Positions 21,471 through 63,024 of a DNA stretch of 64,000 bases are shown here, one piece after another. Source of the DNA: Octopus vulgaris (lineage: Eukaryota). How positions within the stretch are numbered: the stretch's first letter is position 1; the number at the start of each line of letters is the position of its first letter. The DNA lies in the NCBI GenBank assembly GCA_951406725.2, contig OX597830.1, positions 57,660,001-57,724,000 of the forward strand, read 5' to 3'. Under the pieces are notes generated by a model. That model made no database searches, had not been told where the DNA came from, and worked only from the letters and a program-made list of their open reading frames with translations. Made by a program: the position numbers and the translations under genes.

Positions 21471-21886
21471 ATATTGTTATATTTCGGAATGGTCATTTTG
21501 CCAGTTTAGCCAATAAAAACACACGCACTATATATTTGGTGTTATTTTGCTTCAGTGTTATTTATTTTTTACATTAATCTTAATCTTATTTCGGCCAGAG
21601 TTCTTTCATCACACTCCTGTGACCGCATCAGTGGTCCTTTGTTTTCTTCTTTCTTATTTGTGTCTCTCCATGGCTGACGGTTAGTAAGGAGAGACACAAA
21701 TAAGAAAGAAGAAAACAAAGGACCACTGATGCGGTCACAGGAGTGTGACGAAAGAACTCTGGCCGAAATAAGATTAAGATTAATGTAAAAAATAAATAAC
21801 ACTGAAGCAAAATAACACCAAATATATAGTGCATGTGTTTTTATTGGCTAAACTGGCAATATGACCATTCCGAAATATAACAATAT
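21471..21886. repeat. Fold-back palindrome, 199-bp arms, 18-nt spacer (PLE-type inverted terminal repeat)
   Basis: 21471-21669 is the reverse complement of 21688-21886 with 3 mismatches (2 at CpG). The right arm continues ~54 nt as an unpaired tail; flanked by (TA)n. Confidence 0.95.
21720..21764 (+). ncRNA. Minimal hammerhead-like motif with variant core (mirror copy 21593-21637 on minus)
   Basis: GGACCA-CUGAUGC-G-GUCAC(aggagu)GUGAC-GAAA-GAAC-U-C-UGGCC; A9 is replaced by C. Confidence 0.6.
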
Positions 21887-41534: not shown

Positions 41535-41850
41535 AGAACATGGCAGTGAAACATGGGCTGTGATAGCCAAAGACATGTATAGGCTTGAAAGAAATGAAGC
41601 CAGTATGCTTTGCTGGATGTGCAATGTCAAGTGTGCATGTTTGACAGAGTGTAAGCATCTTGAGAGAAAACTTAAGCATAAGAGGCATCAGATGTGGTGT
41701 GCAAGAGAGACGACTGCACTGGTATGGTCATGTGATGCATATGGACGAAGACAGCCATGTAAAGAAGTGCCGATCTCTAACTGTGGTGGAAACCTGTGTT
41801 AGAACAGACCCAAGAAAACATGGGATGAGGTGATGAGGCATGCTGTTGTC
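41535..41850 (+). mobile_element. RTE LINE C-terminal fragment
   Basis: HGSETWAV..LERNEASMLCWMCNV..RPKKTWDEV. Confidence 0.85.
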
Positions 41851-41899
41851 ACATAACTAGCACTTGTGCTGGTGGCATGTAAAGGACACCTTTCAAGTG

Positions 41900-42941
41900 T
41901 TGGGTATCGTGGAGGCACAGTGGCTGAATTCCTTTCGAGCACTGGACTTCAAGGAGACTAAGAGGCAGCGTTCTCTATCAAGTGTTGGGCCTCATGAAAG
42001 CAAAATGGCTGAGTTCCTTTCAAGCATTGGGCCTCATGAAAGCAAGGTGGCTGAGTTCCTTTCGAACATTGGGCCTCATGGAAGCAAAGTGGCTGAGTTC
42101 CTTTCGAACATTGGGCCTCATGGAAGCAAAGTGGATGAGTTCCTTTTGAGCATTTGGCCTCATGGAAGCAAAGTGGCTGAGTTACTTTTGAGCATTGGGC
42201 CTCATGGAGGCAAAGTGGCTGAGTTCCTTTCGAGCATTGGGCCTCATGGAAGCAAAGTGGCTGAGTTCCTTTTGAGCATTTGGCCTCATGGAAGCAAAGT
42301 AGCTGAGTTCCTTTTGAGCATTGGGCCTCATGGAGGCAAAGTGGCTGAGTTCCTTTCGAGCATTGGGCCTCATGGAAGCAAAATGGCTGAGTTCCTTTTG
42401 AGCATTTGGCCTCATGGAAGCAAAGTGGCTGAGTTCCTTTCGAGCATTGGGCCTCATGGAAGCAAAGTGGATGAGTTCCTTTTGAGCATTTGGCCTCATG
42501 GAAGCAAAGTGGCTGAGTTACTTTTGAGCATTGGGCCTCATGGAGGCAAAGTGGCTGAGTTCCTTTCAAGCATTGGGCCTCATGGAAGCAAAGTAGCTGA
42601 GTTCCTTTTGAGCATTTGGCCTCATGGAGGCAAAGTGGCTGAGTTCCTTTCGAGCATTGGGCCTCATGGAAGCAAAGTAGCTGAGTTCCTTTTGAGCATT
42701 TGGCCTCATGGAGGCAAAGTGGCTGAGTTCCTTTCGAGCATTGGGCCTCATGGAAGCAAAGTAGCTGAGTTCCTTTTGAGCATTTGGCCTCATGGAGGCA
42801 AAGTGGCTGAGTTCCTTTCGAGCATTGGGCCTCATGGAAGCAAAGTAGCTGAGTTCCTTTTGAGCATTTGGCCTCATGGAGGCAAAGTGGCTGAGTTCCT
42901 TTCGAGCATTTGGCCTCATGGAGGCAAAGTGGCTGAGTTCC
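41900..42941. repeat. 42-bp minisatellite, about 24 copies
   Basis: Unit gagcattgggcctcatggaagcaaagtggctgagttcctttc; flanked by an RTE ORF end and an RTE 3' UTR (42942-43235). Confidence 0.95.
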
Positions 42942-43487
42942 TCAAGGAGTCAATGACTGAGACCTTTAGCATTATATTGTGCTTGAGAAGAAGACCCATC
43001 AAGCCGAGCAAAATCGCAGTCGTGAAAGATACTGGTGTCACACAAATGGCACCCATGCTGATGGCATGCGAAAGCACTCATTACACACCCAGAGTGGTTG
43101 GTGTTAGGAAGGACATCCAACCATAGAAAACCATGCCAGATTTGACGGGATTCTGGTGCAGCATTCTAGCTTACCAGCCCCAGTCAAACTGTCCAACCCA
43201 TGCCAGCATGGACAACAGACATTAAATGATAATGTTAAAGCAGTAGAGCACTAGGCTAAATACCTCATCACATTTCGTTTCATCCTTCTTGTGCACAGAG
43301 TGCTGACCTTGCTGGTATCAAATTTGCTTTCCATTTCTCCAAAGTTTTAATGGAGTATTCTTGTTGACTGGTTTTAGTTGAGCTGTTCAAAGACATCCTT
43401 TGCTATTTCCCCACTTTCATTACTTTAACCGGTCCCTGCCACTCTGTGCTCAATACACAAAAATCAATTTATATTTCCCCAGCCATT

Positions 43488-43713: not shown

Positions 43714-43909
43714 ATATTTATCATCACCATTAATAAATCATACAATATGTTTTAGTACATTATTTATATTATTTACATTTGACTGATATTTGTCCTCATC
43801 TTGTTTGTTGTTAACACAACATTTTGGCTGATATACCCTCCAGCCTTCATCAAGTGTCTTGGGGAAATTGCAAACCTGGGTTCTCATTCTTAAGGTATTT
43901 TTTGATGTT

Positions 43910-44342
<433 letters not shown>

Positions 44343-44642
44343 TCACTGCCTGGAATTAAACTCAGAATCTTGGGGTTAGTAGCCCACACTCTTAACCACT
44401 ATGCCATATAAAGCTAGAAGAGTAGCGGAAAGGGCAGGACATGCCCTCGTCCGTAAGAGAATCTATTACAACCATTGGGAAAAAAAGTCCACAGGCATTT
44501 GGTGCAGTGGTTAAGAACATGGGCTACTAACCCCAAGATTCCAAGTTCGATTCCAGGCAGTGACCTGAATAATAGTAATAATAATAATAATAACATCGAA
44601 AAATACCTTAGGAATGAGAACCCAGGTTCGAAATTTCCCCAA

Positions 44643-44688
44643 GACACCTGATGAAGGCTGGAGGGTATATCAGCCAAAATGTTGTGTT
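44643..44688 (+). ncRNA. Minimal hammerhead motif, mutated (G12A); mirror copy 43813-43858 on minus
   Basis: GACAC-CUGAUGA-A-GGCUG(gaggguauau)CAGCC-AAAA-UG-U-U-GUGUU. Confidence 0.6.
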
Positions 44689-45869
44689 AACAACAAACAA
44701 GATGAGGACAAATATCAGTCAAATGTAAATAATGTACATAATTCCTCATCTCTTAAACATAGAACAATATGTTTTAGAGTTGTCATCAAATTCATCTTCA
44801 TTCCCCCTCCCCCCCTCTCTCTCTCCACCTGCGGCAGATGGCACACTTACATGAGGCAATTGTCTCCATTGTATGAATGAATGTTATTGGCCAGTCTACC
44901 TCATTTCGTCAGCCACACTCTTCCATGCTGGAGGAGAATATTCATTTTGCAGTTCTCCTTCTCCTCGTTTCATTGCATTCACTTACAATTACTTTATTAA
45001 AAATTCTACATTAATTTCAATTCAGGAGTTGTCACTCCAACACATCTTGATGAGAACCAGTTTTCAAAAAAATGATTTATTAAACTCAGAATTAGGAATT
45101 GTCAAAGTAATTGACTTATGTTTTCTTTTCTTTCTTTTTTGTTTTTAATCTTTGGTCTAATTTTAAAAAATATGAATATTTGGTTATTTTAAGATTTCAT
45201 GTAGAGATTGGGTTCCATAAATCATTTGATGGTAAGAATCTTCAAATACTTTTCAAACGTCCAGGATGAAATTTGCATCTGAAAATGATCTGCAAAACAA
45301 TCTTTCAGTTCTTCTTTCAAATTTTCTGAAATATTTCCATTTGCTTCTTGTTCCAATGAGAACAGACTTATTGAGAAACCAGACTTATCTGGTCTGCAAA
45401 CAGTTTCTTCTAATTTTCAGTTTTTCAGAATGCTCACATCATATCCTGGTCCAAAGTTCCATTGGATTCTAAACTAAACACAGGAATATATGAATCCAAA
45501 CAAATCTGACCACTTCTGAATGTGTATCACATAATCTCCACGAGTATGAATGTTCCTGGTTGGAATTGTTCAAAACTATAAATAGAAAAAGTGTCAGTGT
45601 GTTTTAACAAAAAATTCCCTCTAAATATGAACTCAAAGAAGAAAATATAATTCCTACTAGTAAGGTAAAATATGTATTTTGTTAACTGTTTCAACTTTTG
45701 TGCTTAAATGCAATGGATATGAAAGTTATTTGCACAGAATGTTCAGGACCAATCAGCCTTTTCTAAGCCCACTCCATAGTGATGCATCCACAAATTTAGT
45801 GGTATCAAAAGCAAGTAAAGGAGATAGTTTGCATACTTAATAGATGTTTTGTGTGATTTCTTTCTTTGC

Positions 45870-47877: not shown

Positions 47878-48648
47878 TCTCTCTCTCTCTACTCTTTTTT
47901 GTTTATCTTTGACTACTCATTGGGTTTCTTTTCATTGATTAATTGCAATGAATGAGATTGTTTGTTTTTAATTTGGGCCATTAATTACATGTTGAATAAA
48001 GTCAACCAAGAAAAATGCATGCAATAGATAGGAGTGTCTCCAGCCTCAGCTTTGCCAATTTGTCTCCTGTGTACCCAGAAAATATTCAAGGCATGCAGTA
48101 TCACAGTGATGACATCAGTAAATCTGGGCAGTCAAGAAATTTGCTTTTTAATTACATTGTTCAGAGTTCAAAATACTGTGCAGCATTATGGGGGAAGTGT
48201 TTCTATGTGACTAAGATAGGATAAAGATCCTTCCTGATTCAATATAGACACATAGGCCCAGTTTCCCAGTTTCTGTGGTGCATATATTCCCCCTGGATGG
48301 GACACAAGTCCATCACACAATTACTCATTTCTGCCAGCTGAGTGGACTGGAGCAATGAAGTGTTTTGCTCAAGAACACAATGCATCACTTGGTCCAGGAA
48401 TTGAAACCACAATCTTACGATCATGAGTCCAGCACCTTAACCACTACTCTAGGTATGTCTCAATGTTTCTGAGTGAATTAAAGAGGATAAAATTATGTGG
48501 ACATCTATTGGATGGTAAACTTAATTAGAAAAATAACCAAAAACTCAAACCAGTTGGGAAAGACATCTGCTGTTTTCAGAAAAATCTTCCAGTAATTATA
48601 TTTCTAGTCCATGGCAACCAGCAAAGCCCATGGGAACAGTTTCTTTCT

Positions 48649-48824
48649 ACAGTTCTATATTTAACAGATAAGGAATTATGTACATTATTTCAATTTGACA
48701 GATATTTGTTCTCATCTTGTTTGTTGTTAACACATCATTTCAGCTGATTTACCCTCCAGCCTTCATCAGATGTCTTGGGGAAATTTCAAACCTGAGTTCT
48801 CATTCCTAAGGTATCTTTCGATGC

Positions 48825-48856
<32 letters not shown>

Positions 48857-49083
48857 TCACTGCCTGGAAACAAACTCAGAATCTTGGGGTTAGTAGCCGG
48901 CACACTTAACCACAATGCCATATGCCCATGGGCATAATAATAATAATATTGAAAAATACCCTAGGAATGAGAACCCAGGTTCGAAATTTCCCCAAGACAC
49001 CTGATGAAGGCTGGAGGGTAAATCAGCCGAAACATTGTGTTAACAACAAACAAGATGTAAATAACGTCAAATGTAAATAATGT
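48649..49083. mobile_element. Inverted tRNA-head/(AAT)n/hammerhead element, locus 2
   Basis: Full minus copy 48649-48928 plus an inverted head-less copy 48933-49083. 13-bp TSD acagtttctttct (48636-48648) / acagtttttttct (49084-49096), one mismatch. Confidence 0.85.
48996..49041 (+). ncRNA. Minimal type I hammerhead motif with intact core; mirror copy 48729-48774 on minus
   Basis: GACAC-CUGAUGA-A-GGCUG(gaggguaaau)CAGCC-GAAA-CA-U-U-GUGUU; stem III reduced to ACAU (inferred ancestral palindrome ACGU). Confidence 0.7.
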
Positions 49084-50227
49084 ACAGTTTTTTTCTTTAG
49101 AGTAATTCAATACGAAATGAAATATAAGAAGCTTTTACATATAACAAAAGCATTCTCCCCATTTTCTCTACAAAAGTAATCAGATACATTCAACCATATA
49201 TTCCACTGGGAAAAATAATGCAGTGACTGTACTGACCAATAAACTATCTTCAACTGTTGGCAAAATTTGAGCCATGTTGCAAGATTCCCATCAACAAGAC
49301 CTGCAACCTTTAGTAGAATTCAGAAGATCACAGACAAAAAGTGCTGACCAAAACGAACTATTTTATTCATTAAGGATTTCTTAATGGTGAACAATTGCAG
49401 AAATGATGCTGGAATGTTTTTGATTGGTTCATGCATTGTACAACCCAGTAATTCATTAGGTTGGATTTAAACCTGGAGAGGGACAATACAAGATCAATAC
49501 AAAATCCCCTTTGCACAATCTTCAGCTGACTTAGCTCTTCCAGTTTATATGTCTTGTTCAGCAGAGGTTCATAACAACAACTCAAAAAGAGAATGGCTTC
49601 TATACACGGCTAAACATTAATGTTTAGAGGCCTACAGTCTTGGTGACAATATCTCACATTTGAAAATGAGTATGGCATGGAAATCCTGCAGATAAAAAGG
49701 GTCCAGGGAGACATTTAAAGACTGAATTGCACAGAGAGTTATGAACATGACAACTTTGTGGCATTGATTTTTAAAATTTTCTGAAGACTTTTGTTTTGAT
49801 TGATTTGATGGATACAAGATGACTGAGAGGAAGCTGCACAAGTTCCTATTGATTTATTGCCTTCCTTGTGTTGTCTTCCTCCTATTTTCCAAGCGCCGTA
49901 TCGAAGGAAACAACACACAATAAACAAATACATAGCATTGTATTAATAGCAAACTCCATGACACCATTGCAAACCCTCAGTGTGACATGAAACCTTCTTT
50001 TAAAACATTGAATTCAGCTTTTGTTCTGCAGCACACATTTTGATAGCTTCTCCTTCTGTGTTAAATCATATTATGGCCTTCCCTTAAAAATTCAAGTTTT
50101 AAAAATACATAGAAAATTTCATTTCTGTTGCAGAATGCATGTGCACGCATACATGCACATTTCCCTTTCTTACTCTTTGCCTGCAAATGTGTGCGCCCCC
50201 CCGCCCCCGCTCTCTATATATATTTCT

Positions 50228-60994: not shown

Positions 60995-61570
60995 TTACAA
61001 CAATCTTGGACAAAACACAAGGTTTTGTATCCACAAAGCCAAAGTCACGTGGACAGCTCATCAGACTCTATATAAAAGACAAAAATTTTAAATTTCTACA
61101 TTGTGGACGTGAGGAAATGTTCAGAAACATATCTTAGCCTAAAAATGGTTATGCAGACGGGTTGTCTCCCCTGAATCAGAGGATAAAACAACCCTTTTAG
61201 ACCCAAAAAGGCCTAACCAGCAAATGGAGAGATCCAATTTTCCAGTGGGTAACGCTTAAAGTGGACACATTTAGGAAACACCTCTTTGTGACTATTTAAC
61301 ACGGCAGGTTTAGTATAGTCCTTAAGAATTTTGGCTCTCTCCATGATGCAGATCTTGCAACGGCCACTTCCATTAATATATTGGCCCAGATGATCAATTA
61401 ATTTCCACCTGATGTCACACAGGGTCCCTTGATCTTTGAGGTACCGCACAAGGTGGGCCAGGGATGTGACAAACCATCTTTCTAAGACTCTAAAAGATGA
61501 CTGGTGGTTAAGAAAACATCATTTGAAATAGGTACTGGTAGATCCAATATCTTTACAAAGAACAGGATGT
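60995..61570 (-). mobile_element. Penelope-like element 3' end: GIY-YIG endonuclease remnant plus pLTR
   Basis: Minus translation IGSTST..NHQSSF..TSLAHLVRYLKDQG..IRWKLI..Y..GSGRCKICIMER..I..VLNSHKEVFPKCVH matches PLE GIY-YIG C-termini; HHR-like motif downstream. Confidence 0.8.
61002..61069 (-). ncRNA. Degenerate hammerhead motif in PLE pLTR
   Basis: CUGAUGA-GC-UGUCCAC(14 nt)GUGGAUA-C-AAAA-CCUUG(9 nt)CAAGA-U-U. CGAAA appears decayed to CAAAA; the stem I partner is not evident. Confidence 0.5.
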
Positions 61571-62807: not shown

Positions 62808-63024
62808 GTAATTTAGCCCCAGGAGACATCGTCACCAGCTGGCTATATGACACGATCTGTGTCCTTATATTTTTGAACAAGGGAATCTAGTACCCCGACT
62901 CAGCTCAAAACATTATCTGTGTTTTGAGCTGAGTGGGGGTGCTAGATTCCCTTGTTCGAAAATATAAGGACACAGATCATGTCATATAGCCAGCTGGTGA
63001 CGATGTCTCCTGGGGCTAAATTAC
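62808..63024. repeat. Fold-back palindrome, 105-bp arms, 7-nt loop
   Basis: 62808-62912 versus 62920-63024 reverse complement with ~4 mismatches, mostly at CpG. Confidence 0.95.

What the first reader, a model, noticed from the sequence alone, without database searches (positions are those of the whole stretch)
48636..49096. Second independent insertion repeats the architecture and keeps an intact hammerhead core
Seen: full copy on minus (48649-48928) with a head-less inverted copy upstream (48933-49083) and a different 13-bp TSD (one mismatch). The inverted copy ends at the same aataatgta point as in locus 1. Arms within a locus share private variants (gtaaat in both arms here; gtatat plus aaaatg in both arms of locus 1). 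The 48996-49041 motif keeps CUGAUGA, GAAA and UH. Across the four copies the stem III variants (TG, CA) fit CpG decay of palindromic ACGU. Inference: the inversion is made from one template during integration, and the ribozyme would need to dimerise to form stem III.
Basis: partly seen in the sequence, partly recalled or inferred. Interest (0 to 1): 0.82.

Follow-up and report, generated by a model that had tools for sequence, protein, structure and literature searches.

The report
tRNA-headed Penelope retrotransposon with ribozyme scars
This back-to-back repeat is one of thousands of short insertions of a Penelope-like jumping gene in its already-known inverted layout, but the family also carries a tRNA-like segment that likely acts as its promoter, and about one copy in seven has a 3-base gap at the predicted ribozyme cut site, which is likely a scar of the RNA cutting itself during copying.

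Summary
In detail: tailed copy, inverted tail-less copy, 13-bp TSD. It is not a SINE. It is the end repeat (pLTR) of a Penelope/Poseidon-type Penelope-like element (PLE), about 10^4 insertions. The 'core' is the start of the PLE ORF, holding the minimal hammerhead and the 30-nt tail; 29 of 30 ORF ends run into it. The inverted tail-less copy, tail and dimer-type hammerhead are published PLE traits. Neither copy here is an intact ribozyme. Arms share source markers (80 of 88), but only 2 of 65 are nearest neighbours, and short tailed arms pair with kilobase tail-less arms, so two separate reverse-transcription passes fit better than fold-back. Not found in nine literature searches: (1) a tRNA-Arg-like A/B-box segment inside the pLTR, where 5' ends pile up, with no TTTT in the 2.65-kb unit, suggesting Pol III; (2) a 3-nt deletion at the predicted cleavage site in about 15% of arms, independent between arms and as old as the insertions by a CpG clock (16.1% vs 16.2%), suggesting self-cleavage in vivo. 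New variant of a known kind.

The parts
48636..48648 (+). Left target-site duplication (13 bp)
48650..48680 (-). PLE tail (core 145-175), present on this arm only; in full-length copies it runs on into the ORF
   Evidence: 3,864 exact genomic matches to the tail 29-mer
48650..48824 (-). Core of the tailed arm = first ~58 codons of the PLE reading frame
   Evidence: frame 50% identical over 42 aa to the N-terminus of an 847-aa relative, E=1e-7 (done on copy L011)
48729..48774 (-). Decayed type I minimal hammerhead (U16.1 lost; C88T, C83T, C55T)
48825..48852 (-). (AAT)n spacer between head and core
48853..48927 (-). 75-nt tRNA-like head with A box (TGGCGTAGTGG in the majority) and B box (GTTCGATTC); best match tRNA-Arg among the 30 genomic tRNA loci fetched
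48923..48934 (.). TGCCC-AT-GGGCA palindrome at the junction; it is the native hairpin where the PLE 3' UTR meets the head
48935..49086 (+). Inverted tail-less arm starting in (AAT)n and ending at core 143-146
48996..49040 (+). Type I minimal hammerhead motif; predicted cut after 49036; G89A at 49034 breaks stem III
49084..49096 (+). Right target-site duplication (one mismatch)
43742..44777 (.). Locus 1 of the same family: 14-bp TSD, inverted tail-less arm 43756-44409 with an expanded (TTA)n, tailed arm 44494-44765
44405..44484 (+). 80-nt piece of the PLE ORF between the two heads of locus 1 (94% identical to the majority body)

Best explanation
The locus is a single insertion of a Penelope/Poseidon-type retroelement's end repeat, likely made when the element's enzyme cut both target strands about 12 bp apart and reverse-transcribed its RNA twice, once from the tail end and once from about 30 nt earlier, and then joined the two copies head to head. 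Shown: the unit is ORF - 29-nt UTR - tRNA-like head - (AAT)n - core, where the core is the start of the next ORF and holds the hammerhead and tail; two fixed 3' ends; a TSD around the pair; same source for both arms. Inferred: (1) two priming events, by analogy with the anole PLE that nicks and extends both strands and starts at two sites bracketing the tail; (2) the tRNA-like head is an internal Pol III promoter, so most cDNAs end at the RNA's 5' end and give ~280-nt SINE-like arms without any separate SINE gene (about 50% likely); (3) the hammerhead sometimes cuts the template after GUU, and the RT jumps the break by re-pairing GU with GU, deleting 3 nt (about 45% likely). Some centres were probably reshaped by fold-back at the native hairpin or by later deletion.
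For: Partner: L403-L406 show a broken RT+EN ORF running into head and core; 29 of 30 loci picked by ORF 3' end have the core downstream and 26 of 30 the head; L441, L454, L465 show core+tail continuing into the ORF; locus 1 holds an ORF piece. Two ends: coverage falls from ~190 to ~98 arms after core 145-150; 76 of 86 inverted arms end at 138-154; 41 of 69 tail-anchored loci have an inverted core arm. In ORF-bearing loci the opposing arm is tailed in 13 and tail-less in 5, and no pair has two tails among 11 resolved. Same source. Head: 90 of 142 arms still extending end within -8..+8 of the tRNA +1, hazard 0.040/nt against ~0.002 elsewhere; 734 matches to the UTR 22-mer against 4,372 to a head 20-mer; no T4 run in the 2,654-nt majority body nor in head+core, against 37 in 8,445 nt of five other PLE ORFs; P=0.007, 0.023, 0.045 under three composition nulls. 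Deletion: 38 of ~344 arms, against at most 6 at the 24 other microhomology sites outside the cut; genome-wide 1,457 vs 7,984; in both subfamilies, and not more frequent in the older one; CpG clock 234/1,457 = 16.1% vs 1,294/7,984 = 16.2%, where deletion spread over time predicts 8-12%. Literature: PMC8557442, PMC11167929, PMC4209133.
Against: No intact full-length copy was seen and the clade was not placed on a reference tree. Pfam gave RT at 27.7 bits (cut-off 29.6) and no GIY-YIG hit on the 569-aa natural stretch. Later asymmetric deletion of long palindromes could mimic independent arms. Ends at -3..-7 are confounded with head-to-head junctions. The T4 test compares a majority sequence with single copies and its P-values are modest. 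RNA-seq shows no pile-up of read ends at the head or the cut site (fragmented libraries, species match not known). The segmental duplicates L228/L230 differ at the deletion, along with several other changes in core 85-135, which shows it can arise or be converted after insertion. The clock cannot reject later deletion if it ignores microhomology (r=1, P=0.57). Three head-to-head pairs among the first 100 listed deletion-plus-CA matches point to some conversion between arms. RT slippage at the folded, uncut ribozyme would leave the same mark. In the anole PLE, cleavage was dispensable in vitro (PMC11167929).
Confidence: 0.8

Rival explanations
1. Fold-back: one cDNA from the tail end snaps back at its 3' end (often at the native TGCCC-AC-GGGCA hairpin) and copies itself up to core ~145; later deletions make the arms unequal.
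For: Short 22-26-nt inverted heads without a core exist (L005, L027, L280); several pairs truncate near-symmetrically (L054 33/38, L056 12/21, L216 94/92); source markers agree between arms.
Against: Tail-less arms of 1-2 kb beside tailed arms of 43-170 nt; inverted arm longer in 9 of 28 tail-anchored pairs; the insertion-age deletion is not shared between arms.
Confidence: 0.2
2. The short copies are a separate non-autonomous SINE, with its own short source genes transcribed by Pol III and mobilised in trans by the PLE.
For: tRNA-Arg-like head with A and B boxes; most arms stop at the head; any tailed short copy could in principle be transcribed.
Against: The head is an integral part of the ORF-bearing element (26 of 30); the core is coding sequence; no marker separating short from long copies was seen, although this was not tested formally.
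Confidence: 0.2
3. The 3-nt deletion is not a cleavage scar: it is RT slippage at the folded ribozyme, or a DNA slippage hotspot.
For: L228/L230 differ at it; a 2-nt GT repeat is present; no read ends at the site; clock compatible if deletion ignores microhomology.
Against: Sites with longer microhomology delete far less; the better-matched 5-nt deletion is rarer (7 vs 38); the CpG clock rejects microhomology-dependent DNA slippage (P<=3e-5 for r<=0.5). RT slippage without cleavage is not excluded.
Confidence: 0.5
4. Arm similarity comes mainly from gene conversion between the inverted repeats after insertion.
For: Shared CpG variants 29 vs 20.7+-3.8; three shared variants at CpG sites in locus 1; paired deletion-plus-CA matches.
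Against: Arms are nearly as far apart as random arms (0.063 vs 0.070); the shared variants include linked subfamily markers, also across markers.
Confidence: 0.1

Closest known systems
Poseidon PLE of Anolis carolinensis (PAc; Frangieh et al. 2024, PMC11167929, parts 1-2 of 4 read)
   Same: Hammerhead overlapping the ORF start, AC-rich stretch after it, two RT start sites bracketing a tail, AT-rich targets, both strands cut and extended.
   Different: No tRNA-like segment is mentioned in the parts read; those authors found no reads ending at the cut site and cleavage dispensable in vitro, whereas this family shows a deletion hotspot at that site.
General EN+ PLE layout (Craig et al. 2021, PMC8557442, passages read)
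   Same: Partial tandems forming pLTRs, inverted 5'-truncated copy at the 5' end, 30-40-bp tail on one end only.
   Different: The mechanism of the inverted copy is described as undefined; here arm lengths and markers point to two RT passes from one source.
PLE minimal type I hammerheads (Cervera and de la Pena 2014, PMC4209133, parts 1-2 of 4 read)
   Same: [quoted passage not shown]
   Different: Helix II is 6 bp here (7-8 in their schistosome families); they state that in vivo evidence of cleavage is absent.
Schistosome SINE-like hammerhead elements (Sm-alpha, Sj-alpha; seen only as passages of review PMC6765202)
   Same: Pol III-type promoter followed by a hammerhead.
   Different: Those are non-coding tandem repeats; here the promoter-like head sits in the repeat of a protein-coding PLE, and copies are mostly solo or head-to-head.
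Animal non-LTR retrozymes (bioRxiv 10.64898/2026.07.22.740005, part 1 of 5 and a term search read)
   Same: Short pLTR-related units with type I hammerheads.
   Different: Defined by head-to-tail arrays; the text has no mention of tRNA or polymerase III.

Membership tests
EN+ Penelope-like element | Single ORF with RT | tested here: met
   569-aa natural stretch L443 hits RVT_1 at E=2.7e-6, just under the cut-off; 2,744 homologues at E<=1e-30; 26-37% to the RT of another PLE in this genome
EN+ Penelope-like element | C-terminal GIY-YIG endonuclease | tested here: inconclusive
   Motif CVYSIPCSCGRLYKGET...EEH...ADH in the majority translation; no PF01541 hit on L443; 3 of 120 listed homologues carry PF01541
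EN+ Penelope-like element | Partial tandems forming pLTRs | tested here: met
   L441, L454, L465 have core and/or tail upstream of the ORF; L441 and L465 also head and core downstream
EN+ Penelope-like element | Inverted 5'-truncated copy and 30-40-bp tail on one end | tested here: met
EN+ Penelope-like element | Hammerhead within the pLTR | tested here: met
   4,313 genomic matches to a core-plus-stem II pattern
Penelope/Poseidon clade | [quoted passage not shown] | tested here: met
   None in the majority translation; present in the two other families
Penelope/Poseidon clade | Placement on an RT tree with reference elements | not testable with these tools
   No Repbase or Dfam references available
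Minimal type I hammerhead | CUGANGA, extra nucleotide, G10.1-C11.1, GAAA, palindromic 15.2-16.2, UH, helix I of 4-5 bp | tested here: met
   In the family majority; not in either arm of this locus; 7 of 77 arms fully intact
Minimal type I hammerhead | Self-cleavage as a dimer | not testable with these tools
   Needs an assay; the two-strand energy fold did not give the active dimer
Minimal type I hammerhead | Covariation in helices I and II | not tested
   Copies descend from near-identical sources, so they carry no such signal
tRNA-derived SINE | tRNA-derived head with A and B boxes | tested here: met
   z=7.9 and 7.6 to genomic tRNA-Arg; ARAGORN and Rfam do not call it a tRNA
tRNA-derived SINE | Non-coding element distinct from its autonomous partner | tested here: not met
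   Head and core are parts of the ORF-bearing element
tRNA-derived SINE | Poly(A) or microsatellite 3' tail | tested here: not met
   Ends at AGAACTG(TA)
tRNA-derived SINE | Transcription by Pol III | not testable with these tools
   Indirect support only
Non-LTR retrozyme | Head-to-tail arrays with a hammerhead in every unit | tested here: not met
   Mostly solo or head-to-head; few short tandems

The most novel reading that the evidence does not exclude
A protein-coding Penelope-like element has captured a tRNA gene as an internal Pol III promoter and purged all TTTT terminators from its 2.65-kb unit, so it is its own SINE: internal priming at the tail of the upstream pLTR yields SINE-sized copies. 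A dimeric enzyme primes on both target strands, and the minimal hammerhead does cleave the template in vivo, leaving more than a thousand dated 3-nt template-jump scars, a genomic record of ribozyme activity during retrotransposition.
Probability: 0.25. Interest if true: 0.88.

Novelty: new variant of a known kind. Interest (0 to 1): 0.63.

Why it matters
How PLEs make their inverted copies and tails, and whether their weak minimal hammerheads cut in vivo, are open in the papers read. This family gives about 10^4 natural products to test both. A deletion hotspot at the cut site that is independent between arms and as old as the insertions is a simple signature that can be sought in any PLE-rich genome. 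A Pol III-type promoter inside a coding retrotransposon would blur the line between SINEs and autonomous elements and suggests such repeats are annotated as SINEs. The head-to-head pairs also form ready-made dsRNA, and RNA reads show A-to-G and T-to-C changes of 10-21% at sites that vary by 3% or less in DNA copies.

Tried and rejected
Rfam at E<=5 and E<=10 gave no hammerhead or tRNA match. The young 781-aa Neptune-type family, a young 717-aa family and an old family were each checked as partner and rejected: each has its own hammerhead and 3' end. A tail-only copy beside the old family (L168) was a false lead. A shared sequence after the tail in L228/L230 was a segmental duplication (2 genomic matches). 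My early note that the inverted arm begins with head nt 1-7 was dropped: GGGCA there is equally the native UTR hairpin. 5' truncations at the cut site: 6 of the listed truncations fall at core 92-95, but two are explained by head/core microhomology, so inconclusive. Divergence of deleted against undeleted arms had no power (positive control failed). The intact-ribozyme count came from a faulty pattern and was redone. No run holding the stretch is on record as RNA. Eight metagenome relatives (34-42% identity) have no tRNA call, and the four examined contain T4 runs; too distant to inform. Three look-ups in earlier findings returned nothing. Rows dropped before counts: duplicate loci of one insertion (L036, L050, L055, L058, L201, L203, L205, L206, L208, L220, L226, L230, L246, L247, L250, L260, L410, L438), pairs with under 60 shared columns (65 of 86 kept), and arms not spanning the tested site. 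Literature searches found no report of this family, of a tRNA head in a pLTR, or of cleavage-site deletions; Repbase, Dfam, subscription papers, Lunse et al. 2017 (not held) and the supplements of PMC13282606 and PMC4209133 were not seen and may list it.

Full report
What is there. At 48636-49096 a tailed copy on the minus strand (48650-48927) sits head to head with a tail-less copy on the plus strand (48935-49086), inside a 13-bp TSD with one mismatch. Locus 1 (43742-44777) has the same layout and a 14-bp TSD. The genome is 2.8 Gb and looks like an octopus by size and repeats (my inference). A unit reads: 75-nt head, (AAT)n, 175-nt core (majority of 117 loci). Exact matches number 3,631 for a 28-mer in the hammerhead and 3,864 for the last 29 nt; 39 of 117 tailed arms not picked by their tail match that 29-mer exactly, which gives roughly 11,600 tailed copies.

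The layout is general. Coverage falls from about 190 to about 98 arms after core 145-150. Of 139 loci, 112 had a tailed arm and 86 of these an inverted core arm; these loci were picked in mixed ways. In the tail-anchored set, 41 of 69 have an inverted core arm, 4 an inverted head only, and 24 none within 1,100 nt. 76 of 86 inverted arms end at core 138-154, inside a 9-nt repeat, and 56 of 86 pairs have a TSD of 10 bp or more (mostly 11-15) against a mean of 2.1 in shuffled flanks. An inverted 5'-truncated copy and a 30-40-bp tail on one end are the published PLE layout (PMC8557442, passages), and in the anole PLE the tail lies between two RT start sites used on both strands (PMC11167929, parts 1-2).

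It is a PLE, not a SINE. Three PLE families found by endonuclease searches have other 3' ends. A protein scan of my own loci then showed RT fragments beside some copies. In L403-L406 a broken RT+EN ORF runs straight into head and core. Of 30 loci picked by the ORF's 3' end, 26 have the head and 29 the core downstream; the stop codon lies 29 nt before the head. In L441, L454 and L465 the tail continues into the ORF, and the core's open frame (…TPDEGWRVYQPKRCVNN…) is its N-terminus, 50% identical over 42 aa to the start of an 847-aa relative. The spacer in locus 1 is an 80-nt ORF piece. The RT-EN linker has no extra cysteine cluster, which points to Penelope/Poseidon (criterion from PMC8557442). 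Pfam support is weak on the best natural stretch (RT 27.7 bits, no GIY-YIG hit), and no intact full-length copy was seen.

The hammerhead. The majority fits the published minimal type I descriptor: helix I GACAC/GUGUU, CUGAUGA, an extra A, 6-bp helix II closed by G-C, GAAAC-GUU with no loop 3 (PMC4209133, parts 1-2, where dimers cleave weakly and monomers do not). Rfam does not detect it. The plus-strand motif here has G89A, which breaks stem III; the minus-strand copy has lost U16.1. 7 of 77 tail-anchored arms are fully intact and 35 keep the core letters. 'Intact' therefore overstates the case, and retention in a 5%-diverged dead copy needs no selection.

One source, probably two passes. In 65 pairs, shared non-CpG variants number 25 against 6.1+-2.3 (max 15 in 2000 re-pairings); shared CpG variants 29 against 20.7+-3.8; arm distance is 0.063 against 0.070; the own arm is nearest in 2 of 65. 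A subfamily marked by A60, G129 and head A64 agrees between arms in 80 of 88, 49 of 57 and 33 of 37 pairs. But in ORF-bearing loci the opposing arm is tailed in 13 and tail-less in 5, tailed arms of 43-58 nt face tail-less arms of 1-2 kb, and none of 11 resolved pairs has two tails. Neither arm can then be a copy of the other unless a kilobase was lost later. Short inverted heads and near-symmetric truncations keep fold-back alive for some loci.

The tRNA head. It matches genomic tRNA-Arg best (z 7.9 and 7.6 among the 30 tRNA loci fetched) and has A and B boxes. Of 197 arms that reach it, 90 of the 142 still extending end within 8 nt of tRNA +1: 0.040 per nt against about 0.002 elsewhere (15 of 28 in the tail-anchored set). 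A 22-mer just upstream has 734 genomic matches, a head 20-mer 4,372. A native hairpin sits at the same place, so RT stalling is a rival, and ends at -3 to -7 are confounded with head-to-head junctions. The sense strand has no T4 run in the 2,654-nt majority or in head+core, against 37 in 8,445 nt of five other PLE ORFs; P = 0.007, 0.023 and 0.045 under three nulls. That is what Pol III read-through would need (established knowledge), but it is indirect.

The cleavage-site deletion. Loss of GTT at core 89-91, the three bases before the predicted cut, occurs in 38 of about 344 arms and a 5-nt form in 7; none of the 24 other microhomology sites exceeds 6. Genome-wide there are 1,457 deleted and 7,984 undeleted matches. 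It is what an RT would make if it reached the cut and re-paired GU(92-93) with GU(89-90) (inference). It occurs in both subfamilies (13% and 20%) and on tailed and tail-less arms (18 and 20), and is in both arms in 2 of 20 loci against 18 of 26 for a source marker, so it is not simply inherited. The deletion creates a new CpG, which has decayed to CA in 234 of 1,457 (16.1%) against 1,294 of 7,984 (16.2%) for the original; deletion spread over time predicts 8.3-12.4% unless it ignores microhomology. Against: duplicates L228/L230 differ at it; three paired cases suggest some conversion; RNA-seq shows no ends there; RT slippage on the uncut fold would look the same.

RNA. 9,093 of 12.9 million records in one RNA run lay on the unit, equally in both directions; at 11 sites A>G or T>C reach 10-21% against 0-3% in about 340 DNA arms. 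Editing of the hairpins is likely (this locus folds with 169 pairs), but the runs may be from another species and no matched DNA was laid.

Verdict. The inverted copy, tail and dimer-type hammerhead are known PLE traits, so the finding as written is largely explained. The tRNA module in the pLTR, the missing terminators, the evidence for two passes and the dated deletion at the cut site were not found in nine searches of an open-access library; a 2026 octopus repeat annotation does not contain the word ribozyme (PMC13282606, part 1 and term search). Repbase, Dfam and supplements were not seen. New variant of a known kind; interest 0.63.

Noticed in passing
L168:481-5272; 148 GIY-YIG matches: Young Neptune-type PLE with many intact 781-aa ORFs, an upstream 479-aa open frame, and a hammerhead-like motif with a UUGAUAA core in its 3' repeat.
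   Followed up: partly
L383-L387, L397: Young PLE family with open frames up to 717 aa and a hammerhead-like motif whose core reads CCGAAGA or CCGAUGA.
   Followed up: partly
window 21471-21886: Near-perfect inverted repeat (199-nt arms, 98%, 18-nt spacer); another copy in L164 has both arms further apart, so probably a MITE.
   Followed up: partly
window 62808-63024: Inverted repeat (105-nt arms, 96%, 7-nt spacer); paired arms also in L323 and L010; probably a second MITE.
   Followed up: partly
window 41849-43072: Tandem array of a 42-bp unit, about 90% alike.
   Followed up: no
window 61225-61554 (-): Fragment of a different PLE endonuclease (31-39% to the families in L383 and L189).
   Followed up: no
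L011:1546-1627, runs X21-X23: A>G and T>C changes at 10-21% in RNA reads, typical of A-to-I editing on both strands.
   Followed up: partly
L009, L074, L084, L091, L101, L108: Head-less cores joined through (AAT)n to the 3' ends of other repeats that look like LINE tails; insertion into, or recombination at, AAT tracts.
   Followed up: no
G000:C1, first 5.1 Mb and about 103-115 Mb: Copies are much denser here than elsewhere on the contig (30 of the first 100 matches lie in the first 5.1 Mb).
   Followed up: no
L411, L427: Long copies with an internal inversion near the ORF end, where an inverted piece replaces or follows the last ORF codons.
   Followed up: no
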